DNA from: Patescibacteria group bacterium
Lineage (GTDB): Bacteria > Patescibacteriota > Minisyncoccia > Phycocordibacterales > UBA9973
Assembly (NCBI GenBank): GCA_043818335.1
Contig: JBDRFV010000019.1
Span: 1 to 41,460 of the forward strand
Length of the DNA: 41,460 bases
Direction: 5' to 3'
The translations under genes and the position numbers were made by a program. Below, piece by piece: positions 3,688-5,769 of the stretch (its first letter is position 1; each line of letters starts with the position of its first letter). The notes below the pieces were generated by a model. The model saw nothing but the letters and a program-made list of their open reading frames with translations, did no database searches and had not been told where the DNA came from.

Positions 3688-5769
3688 ATGGCTAAAGAAA
3701 AAGATATAAAAAAAGTAAAAGAAAGGGGAAACGGGCATCATTATGATGCTTCTGATATTTCTGTTTTAGAAGGATTAGATCCAGTACGCAGAAGACCTGG
3801 AATGTATATTGGTACGACTGGTCCAGAAGGAATGCATCATTTAGTTTGGGAAATTTTTGATAACTCACGTGACGAAGCCATGGGAGGTTTTTGTGATACT
3901 ATTGAAGTTGTTTTACTTCCAGGAAATAGAATTAGAGTTGCAGATAATGGCCGTGGTATTCCAGTTGATATTCATAAAAAAACAAAAGTATCCGCTCTTG
4001 AAACTGTTATGACGACTCTTCATGCTGGAGGAAAATTTGGAGGAGAGGGTTACAAAGTTTCTGGAGGATTACATGGAGTTGGTGCTTCTGTTGTAAATGC
4101 ACTTTCTATTTATTGTAAAGCTGAAATTTACAAAGACGGGGGACTATATGTTCAAGAATATTCAAAGGGAAAGAAAAAAAGTGCAGTTAAAAAAATAAAA
4201 GCTTCTAAATTAAATGGAACTATAATAACTTTTGAACCAGATGTAGAAATTTTTAAAGATATCAAATTTGATTGGAGTACTATTGTGAGTCATATTCGTC
4301 AGCAGGCTTATCTAGTTAAAAGTTTAAAAGTTTCAATTGTTGACGCCAGAAATTATGATGGAAAAATAGATTCTTCCGATGTTTTTTATTTTCAAGAATT
4401 AGGATTAGAACTTCCTTCTACTTCATTTTATTTTGAAGGTGGTTTAACTTCTTTAATAAAATATTATAATAAATTTCAGAAACCAATCCACAGTCATATT
4501 TTTCATATTGAAAAAGAACTAGATGATGTTGGTGTAGAAATTGCACTTCAGTACGTTGATGATATTTCTGATAGAATTATTCCTTTTGCAAATAATATTT
4601 ATACTGGAGAAGGCGGAACTCATATTACTGGTTTTAAAACTGCACTTACTAGAACTTTAAATACTTATTGTAAAAAGAATGAAATGATGAAAGACACTGA
4701 GGGCGGATTTACTGGAGACGATGTTCTTGAAGGATTAACTGCTGTTGTTTCTGTTAAACTAAGAGAAATACAGTTTGAAGGACAGACTAAGGCTAAATTA
4801 GGTTCTGTAGAAGCTCAGGGAGCCGTTGGAACCGTGTTTGCAGAGGCTTTTGCAGCATTTCTAGAAGAAAACCCAGATGATGCAAAATCAATAATTAATA
4901 AGTCAATTCTAGCGCTTAGAGCACGTAAAGCAGCAAAAGCGGCGAAAGATTCTGTTCTTCGAAAAGGTGCATTAGAAGGAATGACTTTACCTGGTAAATT
5001 AGCTGACTGTCAAAGTAAAAGTGCTGAAGAATCTGAATTATTTTTAGTAGAGGGAGATTCTGCAGGAGGTTCTGCTAAACAAGGAAGAGACAGGAGAACT
5101 CAAGCTATTTTGCCACTTCGTGGAAAAATTTTAAACGTAGAAAGAGCACGTATAGATAAAATGCTAGCTTCAAAAGAAGTTAAGTCTTTAATTATAGCGA
5201 TGGGAAGTTCTATTGGAGATACTTTTGATATTGAAAAAATGCGTTATCACAAAATAATAATAGCGACAGATGCTGACGTTGATGGAGCGCATATTAGGAC
5301 TTTGTTACTAACTTTGTTTTATAGATATTTCAAACAAATAATAGAAGCTGGTTATATTTATATTGCTCAACCTCCACTTTATAAAATTAAAAAAGGAAAA
5401 GAAATTAATTATGCTTATACAGACGAAGAGAGAATAAAAATTGTTGGCAAGACTGCTGATGTGATTGAAATACAACCCACCGACGCTGAAGCTTTGGCGG
5501 GCGAGGAAGCCGAAGGCCCCGAGCTTGTTGAAGAAAAGGAAAAGAAATCAACAAAAATTCATATTCAGAGATATAAAGGTCTCGGAGAAATGAATCCTGA
5601 AGAACTTTGGGAAACAACGATGGATCCAAAAAATAGAATTTTAAAGAGAGTAGACATTAATGATGCAGAAGAAGCAAATAAAATTTTTGATATTTTGATG
5701 GGCTCTGAAGTTCCTCCAAGAAAATCTTTTATTCAGTCAAATGCAAAATTGGCTGAGATTGATATATAG
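3688..5769 (+). CDS. gyrB: DNA gyrase subunit B
   Basis: The GHKL ATPase is marked by [15 protein letters not shown] and [14 protein letters not shown]. Toprim motifs are [15 protein letters not shown] and [12 protein letters not shown]. The tail reads [20 protein letters not shown]...[17 protein letters not shown]. Confidence 0.95.
5476..5524. repeat. GC-rich element in frame in gyrB
   Basis: The sequence is CCCACCGACGCTGAAGCTTTGGCGGGCGAGGAAGCCGAAGGCCCCGAGC and encodes ..[17 protein letters not shown]... It shares the blocks CTGA(A)GCTTTG and GGGCGAGG with the intergenic repeat at 16383-16404. Confidence 0.55.

What the first reader, a model, noticed from the sequence alone, without database searches (positions are those of the whole stretch)
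5476..5524. gyrB insert shares sequence blocks with the intergenic repeat
The gyrB segment CTGAAGCTTTGGCGGGCGAGG parallels CTGAGCTTTGCGAAGGGCGAGG of repeat copy 2 (16383-16404). It lies in the variable region just before the conserved [10 protein letters not shown] and encodes [17 protein letters not shown]. In so AT-rich a genome, GGGCGAGG should be very rare by chance. It occurs here, in both intergenic copies and, as GGGCGAG, at 21750.
Basis: seen in the sequence. Interest (0 to 1): 0.6.

Follow-up and report, generated by a model that had tools for sequence, protein, structure and literature searches.

The report
Selfish hairpin repeats inside gyrB
The GC-rich patch in the DNA gyrase B gene consists of two tiny hairpin-forming repeats that lie in frame in many essential genes of these ultra-small bacteria; the kind is known from Rickettsia, and the patch is not a copy of the intergenic repeat it was compared with.

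Summary

The proposed parallel with intergenic repeat copy 2 is no better than chance (p=0.075). The shared 8-mer in gyrB arises at the junction between an element and its flank.

The patch is two adjacent in-frame copies of other dispersed GC-rich mini-repeats.
- Family D (5476-5502) has the consensus CCCGCCGACGCTAAAGCTTTGGCGGGC and encodes P-A-D-A-K/E-A-L-A-G.
- Family E (5509-5534) encodes AEGPELVEG.

Family D has 6 copies in this genome. One is a clean 33-nt insertion in efp. It occurs in 28 of 101 genomes of the genus and in 13 of 300 other genomes of the order. There it lies in frame, in either orientation, in murB, pth, metG, rnr, purD, rsmH, the CCA-adding enzyme gene and gyrB.

Among seven gyrB genes that carry it, codon identity at identical residues is 0.86 in the element against 0.46 in the rest of the gene.

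In gyrB the element replaces linker sequence and adds no length. No enzyme that could move it was found.

Best reading: selfish hairpin elements like REPs or Rickettsia palindromic elements, tolerated in the variable gyrase linker. This scan has already noted the phenomenon on this window and in other Patescibacteria (candidate phyla radiation, CPR) genomes.

The parts
3688..5769 (+). gyrB coding sequence (693 aa), the host gene
   Evidence: ORF and translation. Pfam HATPase_c, DNA_gyraseB, Toprim and DNA_gyraseB_C. 84-87% identical to GyrB of the same genus.
5476..5502 (+). Family D mini-element, 27-nt core CCCACCGACGCTGAAGCTTTGGCGGGC. It is in frame and encodes PTDAEALAG. In gyrB copies it is followed by GAGGAA (5503-5508).
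   Evidence: 26 of 29 identical to C3:4381-4409, blastn-short E=0.003 against the whole genome. Two mismatches to the family consensus. Clusters with 4 other islands without supervision. The same element sits at the same codon in gyrB of other species. Its rare codons have P=1.8e-7 given the peptide.
5509..5534 (+). Family E mini-element copy GCCGAAGGCCCCGAGCTTGTTGAAGA, in frame, encoding AEGPELVEE.
   Evidence: Matches GCCGAAGGYCCYGAGCTTGYCGAAGG with 2 mismatches. The pattern occurs in 22 of 101 genus genomes, with 0 hits for the reversed control. Thirteen hits are outside gyrB, most in the reverse frame (PSTSSGPSA) inside ORFs of 400-544 aa. An E-like peptide is present in 51 of 131 genus GyrB linkers.
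15806..15905 (+). Family A intergenic multi-hairpin repeat, copy 1 (short form, GCCC-GAA-GGGC).
   Evidence: Sequence. Family members at C8:14785, C8:831, C52:4855 and C44:25218.
16350..16455 (+). Family A copy 2 (long form). The extra 10 nt TGAGCTTTGC at 16384-16393 sit inside the GCCC/GGGC hairpin.
   Evidence: Sequence. The same long form occurs at C8:837(-). Alignment to the gyrB patch is not significant.
21745..21784 (+). Family B hairpin (CCCTCGGGCATAGCCCACGGGCGAGCC), intergenic.
   Evidence: The family has 19 members in the genome.

Best explanation
Window 5476-5534 is two adjacent, translated, in-frame copies of short GC-rich hairpin-forming dispersed repeats: family D, then family E. 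They belong to a large population of REP/RPE-like selfish mini-elements in this Paceibacteria (Nomurabacteria-like) lineage.

Shown:
- The sequence belongs to family D.
- The family is dispersed in both orientations, between genes and in frame inside unrelated housekeeping genes.
- It is cleanly present or absent in efp.
- Its distribution at the gyrB site is patchy on the GyrB tree.
- Conservation at the nucleotide level exceeds that of the host gene.
- Stem changes are compensatory.

Inferred:
- The elements spread or are renewed at the DNA level, either by a hairpin-directed cut-and-insert activity supplied in trans or by gene conversion between copies.
- Copies survive only where the encoded Pro-Ala-rich-Gly peptide is harmless.
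- In GyrB that place is the variable acidic linker between Toprim and the C-terminal tail, the site where E. coli GyrB carries its large insertion.
- In gyrB the element has overwritten about 10 linker codons and has not lengthened the protein.
For: Membership of family D:
- blastn E=0.003 and 25 of 27 matches to the consensus; unsupervised clustering.
- The reversed-pattern control gave 0 hits against 42 forward hits in 28 of 101 genus genomes, and against hits in 13 of 300 other genomes of the order.

In-frame dispersal:
- 21 copies lie in the forward frame; others lie in two reverse frames, 3 in one and 4 in the other, inside long ORFs.
- Pfam confirms the hosts as MurB, Pth, MetRS, class I and class II aminoacyl-tRNA synthetases, RNase R, CCA-adding enzyme, PurD, RsmH and a reverse transcriptase.

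Clean insertions:
- EF-P of this genome has +33 nt (family D) and +39 nt (another family) against 15 relatives.

gyrB:
- The element sits at the identical codon (after EIQ) in 14 of 144 GyrB sequences and is scattered on the tree: 11 changes, at least 6 forced. The window's nearest relatives lack it.
- Identical-codon fraction at identical residues is 0.86 in the element against 0.46 in the rest of gyrB, rank 1 of 669 windows.
- GC3 (G+C at third codon positions) is 0.67 in the element against 0.175 in the genome.

Hairpin:
- 93% of stem cells are paired. Six cells changed on both sides, against 1.5 in shuffles (0 of 500 reach it). One is a compensatory pair of nonsynonymous changes in another species' gyrB copy.
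- Other copies fold with z between -1.9 and -3.8.

Site tolerance:
- The linker aligns to the gap where E. coli GyrB has about 145 extra residues. It is about 23 aa longer than in S. pneumoniae GyrB.
Against: - No net length change in gyrB: 72.5 aa with or without D. A simple insertion is therefore not shown at this site.
- No target-site duplication is visible at the efp junctions.
- No mobilising enzyme was found. The 82%-complete genome has no Y1/RAYT transposase. DUF559 genes are flanked by a different hairpin type, and their co-occurrence with D is weak: 19 of 28 against 37 of 73.
- gyrB copies in different species share the Glu variant (GCTGAAGCT) and the GAGGAA tail that this genome's three closest D copies lack. 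This fits one old insertion kept by selection as well as it fits recurrent insertion.
- The window's own copy has an A-C mismatch in the stem on the coding strand, and the patch folds no better than shuffles, z=-0.8.
- Translation of the element was not observed.
Confidence: 0.68

Rival explanations
1. The hairpins are host-useful nucleic-acid signals kept by selection, and are not selfish. In DNA or mRNA they could act as a protein-binding or gyrase-binding site, an mRNA stabiliser or processing site, or a translation pause between domains. The gyrB copy would then be one old insertion inherited vertically and lost in many lineages.
For: - Synonymous sites of the element are the most conserved in gyrB.
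- Stem changes are compensatory.
- Orthologous gyrB copies share subfamily-specific bases.
- The family is conserved across many families of the order.
- From my own knowledge, E. coli REPs are reported to bind gyrase and to stabilise mRNA. REP roles as RNA elements are discussed in PMC3733652.
Against: - Only 6 copies per genome; absent from 73 of 101 genus genomes at this stringency.
- Copies occur in either orientation and in unrelated genes, with no common position relative to domains.
- Sister lineages do without it, with the same linker length.
- The window's copy has a weakened stem.
Confidence: 0.17
2. The repeated unit is a peptide module, P-A-D-A-K-A-L-A-G-K, selected at the protein level as a short linear motif or flexible helix cap. 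The DNA likeness would be a by-product.
For: Most in-gene copies use one frame and orientation, 21 against 7. The reverse frame gives a similar Ala-rich peptide, PAKALASAG.
Against: - Codon-level identity is far above the gene background.
- The codons are rare ones: P=1.8e-7 given the peptide.
- Copies also lie between genes (C25, C8, C32) and in a frame that gives an unrelated peptide, ARQSFSVGG.
- Compensatory nonsynonymous changes keep base pairs and not residues.
Confidence: 0.05
3. Chance: an Ala/Glu/Gly-rich acidic linker happens to resemble GC-rich repeats.
For: All relatives have an acidic linker of the same length.
Against: A 27-mer with 2 mismatches to a family consensus, 0 hits for reversed controls in about 400 genomes, identical codons in other species' gyrB, and GC3 of 0.67 against 0.175.
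Confidence: 0.02

Closest known systems
Rickettsia palindromic elements (RPEs; Ogata et al. 2000/2002, as summarised in PMC10969869)
   Same: - Dispersed palindromic repeats.
- Inserted in frame into many unrelated housekeeping genes and read through as extra peptide.
- Also found between genes; several families per genome.
- Host is a small-genome, AT-rich bacterium.
   Different: - RPEs are about 100-150 bp. Here the units are 27-39 nt.
- Different phylum (Patescibacteria), and no sequence relation was shown.
- Strongly GC-rich against a 31% GC genome.
- The same 27-mer is conserved across many families of an order.
REPs, including intragenic REPs (GTAG- and CGTC-tagged palindromes; Di Nocera et al. 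2013, PMC3733652)
   Same: - Imperfect palindromes of 20-40 bp.
- Some lie inside genes, notably replication and repair genes, and encode short peptides in linkers or loops.
- CGTC REPs likewise have no dedicated transposase.
   Different: - Family D has no unpaired GTAG or CGTC tag at either end. CGTC occurs only inside the loop on the minus strand.
- Its stem is 6-7 bp with a loop of about 13 nt, against 8-9 bp and 4-5 nt in CGTC families.
- No RAYT was found in this genome.
- Copy number is very low, 6 per genome.
GC clusters of yeast mitochondrial DNA (var1 in-frame insertions; 'byp' elements of Magnusiomyces; reviewed in PMC8811140)
   Same: - Short GC-rich palindromic mobile clusters in a very AT-rich genome.
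- Mostly intergenic, but also in frame in a protein gene.
- Spread by gene conversion or recombination.
   Different: - Organellar and eukaryotic context.
- GC clusters show AG/TAG terminal repeats read as target duplications. None is seen at the efp junction here.
- Some mitochondrial clusters are bypassed in translation. Here the copies are multiples of three and free of stops, so they are presumably translated.
The E. coli GyrB domain insertion between Toprim and the C-terminal tail
   Same: The same position in the protein, between PPLYK and [10 protein letters not shown], tolerates lineage-specific extra sequence.
   Different: The E. coli insert is a folded domain of about 170 aa with a role in gyrase function (my knowledge of Schoeffler et al. 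2010). Here the extra sequence is a low-complexity acidic linker of about 35 aa, partly made of repeat-derived sequence.

Membership tests
RPE-like in-frame palindromic repeats (class, not sequence family) | Multi-copy dispersed repeat family | tested here: met
   6 copies in this genome, 42 in 28 of 101 genus genomes, and copies in 13 of 300 other genomes of the order. Reversed controls gave 0.
RPE-like in-frame palindromic repeats (class, not sequence family) | Palindromic, with hairpin potential | tested here: met
   7-bp stem plus 2 inner pairs. 93% of cells are paired across 43 variants, and 6 cells carry compensatory changes. The window's own copy has one A-C mismatch.
RPE-like in-frame palindromic repeats (class, not sequence family) | Inserted in frame in unrelated conserved genes, with the reading frame continuing | tested here: met
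   gyrB, efp, murB, pth, metG, rnr, the CCA-adding enzyme gene, purD, rsmH and others.
RPE-like in-frame palindromic repeats (class, not sequence family) | Absent from orthologues (presence/absence at the site) | tested here: met
   efp has +33 nt against 15 relatives. In gyrB, 107 of 131 genus sequences lack the element, but the length is unchanged, so there it is a replacement.
Rickettsia RPE sequence families | Length of about 100-150 bp and homology to RPE-1 to RPE-10 | tested here: not met
   The units here are 27-39 nt. Homology to RPE sequences was not searched.
Tagged REPs (GTAG/CGTC super-families, PMC3733652) | Unpaired GTAG or CGTC motif at one end of the palindrome | tested here: not met
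   Read directly from the 43 variants. The ends are CCCGCC / GGCGGGC, and CGTC lies in the loop on the minus strand only.
Tagged REPs (GTAG/CGTC super-families, PMC3733652) | Associated RAYT (Y1) transposase | tested here: inconclusive
   PF01797 was not found in this genome, which is only 82% complete. Relatives were not searched.
MITE | Terminal inverted repeats plus target-site duplication, derived from a parent insertion sequence (IS) | tested here: inconclusive
   The stem arms could serve as inverted repeats. No duplication is seen at efp. A 9-11-codon flanking duplication is seen at leuS. No gene-carrying parent lies between paired copies.
Yeast mitochondrial GC clusters | AG/TAG terminal repeats and organellar location | tested here: not met
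   The genome is bacterial, and no such terminal repeats occur at the junctions read.
DNA uptake sequences (USS/DUS) | Hundreds to thousands of copies per genome | tested here: not met
   6 copies of D in 563 kb.
DUF559-nuclease hairpin cassettes (earlier notes of this scan) | The element forms the ends of, or lies next to, a DUF559 gene | tested here: not met
   For family D, none of 13 DUF559 loci has D. Most are flanked by CCCTCCCC-loop-GGGGAGGG hairpins. Co-occurrence is 19 of 28 against 37 of 73.

The most novel reading that the evidence does not exclude
Family D and its relatives could be actively renewed by an unknown hairpin-directed, site-preferring mechanism (homing or gene conversion, without a RAYT). 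It would repeatedly hit the same codons of essential genes in separate lineages: after EIQ in gyrB, one loop of efp, and the N-terminus of leuS, there with a 9-11-codon flanking duplication. Lineage-specific linkers such as the Paceibacteria GyrB linker would then be largely built and overwritten by such elements.
Probability: 0.25. Interest if true: 0.75.

Novelty: new variant of a known kind. Interest (0 to 1): 0.55.

Why it matters
- Essential, highly conserved genes of genome-reduced CPR bacteria carry translated selfish DNA. The most variable protein segment of GyrB is, at the DNA level, the most conserved stretch of the gene.
- These patches distort alignments, phylogenies and gene calls for marker genes such as gyrB, rpoB and efp.
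- They offer a tractable way to ask how short hairpins move without a known transposase, and how protein linkers arise.
- For annotation, the element gives a simple sequence tag for this lineage.

Tried and rejected
- Folding the gyrB patch gave z=-0.8 on both strands, no better than shuffles, so the window's own copy gives no structural support.
- AlphaFold2 of GyrB with 65 close relatives gave mean pLDDT 53.8, with the whole C-terminal half below 50. It says nothing about the linker.
- A Y1/RAYT transposase was not found in this genome.
- DUF559 was tested as a partner of family D. The flanking hairpins are of another type and the co-occurrence is not convincing.
- Paired D copies in G238 and G086 were searched for a gene-carrying parent element. 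Between them lie only leuS, the CCA-adding enzyme gene and a yraN-like gene.
Population polymorphism and transcription could therefore not be examined.
- Literature searches for this phenomenon in CPR/Patescibacteria found nothing specific.
- A look-up of the 27-mer among earlier scan notes by sequence found nothing.
- The AU test for efp did not reject a single origin of the element in G000 and G105, p=0.116.

Full report
**What is at the coordinates.**
The window is contig C19 of a 563-kb, 57-contig genome with 30.9% GC. Database names of the nearest GyrB proteins place it in Paceibacterota / Candidatus Nomurabacteria, within the Patescibacteria.

gyrB is the ORF at 3688-5769 (+), 693 aa, with the four expected Pfam domains. 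Bases 5476-5534 read CCC ACC GAC GCT GAA GCT TTG GCG GGC GAG GAA GCC GAA GGC CCC GAG CTT GTT GAA GA. They encode [20 protein letters not shown] and lie 12 codons before [12 protein letters not shown].

This is the GC maximum of the gene. GC3 (G+C at third codon positions) is 0.67 in the first nine codons, against 0.175 in long ORFs of the genome. CCC, ACC, GCG, GGC and GCC each make up only 6-11% of their synonymous sets. Given the peptide, the probability of these nine codons under genome usage is 1.8e-7.

**Testing the observation.**
- GGGCGAGG occurs at 5499, 15841, 16397 and also 24370. That is 4 against 0.06 expected.
- It occurs 18 times in the genome.
- Even within GC-rich islands, against a second-order Markov null built from those islands, it is found in 16 islands against 1.06 expected, z=14.
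- AGCTTTG is weakly enriched, 8 against 2.5.
- Most GGGCGAGG copies are stem arms of two repeat families. Family A is the intergenic multi-hairpin repeat. Family B is CCCTCGGCCGTAG..ACGGGCGAGG.
It ranks 18th of 169 GC-rich windows.

The k-mer enrichment is real. The specific parallel is not beyond chance.

**What the patch really matches.**
A short-word BLAST of 5441-5560 against the rest of the genome gives one outstanding hit: C3:4381-4409, 26 of 29 identical, E=0.003. A mismatch-tolerant scan finds six related copies with the consensus CCCGCCGACGCTAAAGCTTTGGCGGGC; I call this family D. They are at gyrB, C3:4381(-), C25:711(-), C1:420(-), C8:589(-) and C32:15984(+).

Unsupervised clustering of all 260 GC islands puts the gyrB island with four of these and not with family A.

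Read in the gyrB frame, the copies give [45 protein letters not shown] and PSVAKAMDG.
- The C3 copy lies inside elongation factor P.
- The C1 copy lies at the start of leuS.
- The other three are in short open frames and are probably intergenic.

**GyrB of relatives.**
All 29 relatives searched have an acidic linker of similar span at this place.

Among the 120 nearest GyrB proteins plus genome loci, 14 of 144 carry an intact P-A-D-A-E-A-L-A-G at exactly the same position, after EIQ. Eleven carry decayed forms and 119 carry nothing recognisable.

On a GyrB tree built without the linker, the intact state needs 11 changes, of which at least 6 are forced by well-supported branches. The window's nearest relatives lack it.

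The linker span is 72.5 aa with or without the element. In gyrB the element therefore replaces linker codons and adds no length.

At the DNA level, seven gyrB genes with the element share CCC GCC GAC GCT GAA GCT TTG GCG GGC GAG GAA almost letter for letter, while flanking codons differ freely. The fraction of identical codons at identical residues is 0.86 in the element and 0.46 in the rest of the gene. That ranks the element first of 669 nine-codon windows.

**The family elsewhere.**
- The 27-mer, allowing up to 2 mismatches, occurs 42 times in 28 of 101 genomes of the genus.
- It occurs in 13 of 300 genomes of other genera of the order, spread over 12 of the order's other families.
- The reversed control pattern gave 0 hits in both searches.

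Twenty-one copies lie in the PADAKALAG frame inside long ORFs. Three lie in one reverse frame (ARQSFSVGG) and four in the other (PAKALASAG). None uses the remaining open frame.

Pfam confirms the hosts as MurB, peptidyl-tRNA hydrolase, MetRS, class I and class II aminoacyl-tRNA synthetases, RNase R, CCA-adding enzyme, PurD, RsmH and a reverse transcriptase. A further copy lies near the GyrB N-terminus in two other genomes.

In this genome's EF-P the element is a clean 33-nt insertion (CCCGCC...GGCAAGGGA) relative to 15 relatives. A second clean 39-nt insertion belongs to another hairpin family.

G105 has family D at the same efp codon, although its EF-P groups with an element-free sequence. 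An AU test does not reject a single origin, p=0.116.

**The second half of the patch.**
GCCGAAGGCCCCGAGCTTGTTGAAGA (5509-5534) matches a second pattern, family E, found in 22 of 101 genus genomes with 0 control hits. Thirteen hits are outside gyrB, most in the reverse frame (PSTSSGPSA) inside ORFs of 400-544 aa. By my reading of their motifs, these include an ATP synthase subunit and a DnaK tail. E-like peptides occur in 51 of 131 genus GyrB linkers, and 72 of 131 have D or E.

The 10 extra bases that distinguish intergenic copy 2 from copy 1 make it read CCTGAGCTTTGCGAAGG. That is 15 of 17 identical to the E core CCTGAGCTTGTCGAAGG. This likeness is by eye only and was not tested.

**Structure and protein site.**
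Other D copies fold into a 7-bp stem with two inner pairs, z between -1.9 and -3.8. The window's copy has an A-C mismatch, and the patch folds no better than shuffles.

Across 43 sequence variants, 93% of stem cells pair. Six cells carry changes on both sides, against 1.5 in shuffles (0 of 500 reach it). One is a pair of nonsynonymous changes, GCT to GAT and GCT to TCT, in another species' gyrB copy that keeps a base pair. The variants were retrieved with a pattern, which biases this count.

The linker corresponds to the gap where E. coli GyrB chains carry about 145 extra residues. It is about 23 aa longer than in S. pneumoniae GyrB. The AlphaFold model was too poor to use.

**Mechanism.**
- No Y1/RAYT transposase was found in this 82%-complete genome.
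- The single DUF559 gene (C43:3678-4004), and most of 12 others in the genus, are flanked by hairpins of a different type (CCCTCCCC-loop-GGGGAGGG) and not by family D.
- D-bearing genomes have DUF559 in 19 of 28 cases, against 37 of 73 for the rest. That is not convincing.
- No gene-carrying parent lies between paired copies.
- No target duplication is seen at efp.
- At leuS the element is flanked by a diverged duplication of the first 9-11 codons in three genomes. Twenty-five relatives have one copy of those codons and no element.

I therefore commit to selfish hairpin repeats that are spread or renewed in trans or by gene conversion and survive in tolerant loops. The moving step is inferred and not shown.

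**Comparison with what is known.**
- In-frame palindromic repeats are known from Rickettsia (PMC10969869).
- Intragenic REPs of 20-40 bp, often in replication and repair genes, are described in PMC3733652.
- GC-rich palindromic clusters inserted in frame in yeast mitochondrial var1 are reviewed in PMC8811140.
- Family D lacks the GTAG/CGTC end tag and the stem and loop dimensions of tagged REPs. It is far shorter than RPEs and lies in another phylum.
- I found no paper that describes it in Patescibacteria.
- Earlier notes of this scan describe the same general phenomenon on this window and in other CPR genomes. Within the scan this is not a first sighting.

**Verdict.**
The patch is a real and rather striking example of a known kind in a new lineage and form.

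Noticed in passing
G000 C1:420-446 (-), with L138 (G021) and L133 (G238): At the start of leuS, a family D copy lies between two diverged copies of the first 9-11 codons: MKTYDHKKI[SADAKALAGREKK]MKEYNHIKIERKWQ. The same layout occurs in G021 and, in another family of the order, G238. Twenty-five other relatives have a single copy and no element. This may be a long target duplication.
   Followed up: partly
G000 C3:4168-4827 (-) (L061): The EF-P gene carries two clean in-frame insertions that 15 relatives lack: 33 nt of family D, and 39 nt of another hairpin family (CCTGCCCGCAATGCTTTCAGCAAAGCTGATGCAGGCGGG). Relatives of the second family occur at C10:8389, C23:5913, C32:39, C38:4373 and C40:71.
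   Followed up: partly
window 990-1040, 7212-7244, 20247-20283, 23016-23050, 25959-25997: Further GC-rich hairpin patches lie in frame in a DUF2779 protein gene, thrS, rnr (RNase R), trmD and rpoB. Translations are open through each, and Pfam confirms the hosts. Presence or absence in relatives was not checked.
   Followed up: partly
G000 C43:3581-4049 (L095): The only DUF559 (Vsr-like nuclease fold) gene of the genome is bracketed within 100 nt by CCCCAACCCCC..GGGGG hairpins. Most of 12 further DUF559 loci in the genus show similar flanks. Several DUF559 matches lie inside open frames of about 1000 aa.
   Followed up: partly
It is not in a GC island and looks like a chance occurrence.
   Followed up: no
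G024:C3:30735-34130; proteins P0049, P0105: Some GyrB genes of the genus are interrupted in frame by an intein (PF14890), giving open frames of 962-1136 aa.
   Followed up: no
window 5572-5620 region; alignment: HMMER aligns the query's [11 protein letters not shown] with APALAGEALE at the start of the E. coli GyrB insertion domain. It is a 5-residue ALAGE match in Ala-rich sequence and is most likely coincidence.
   Followed up: no
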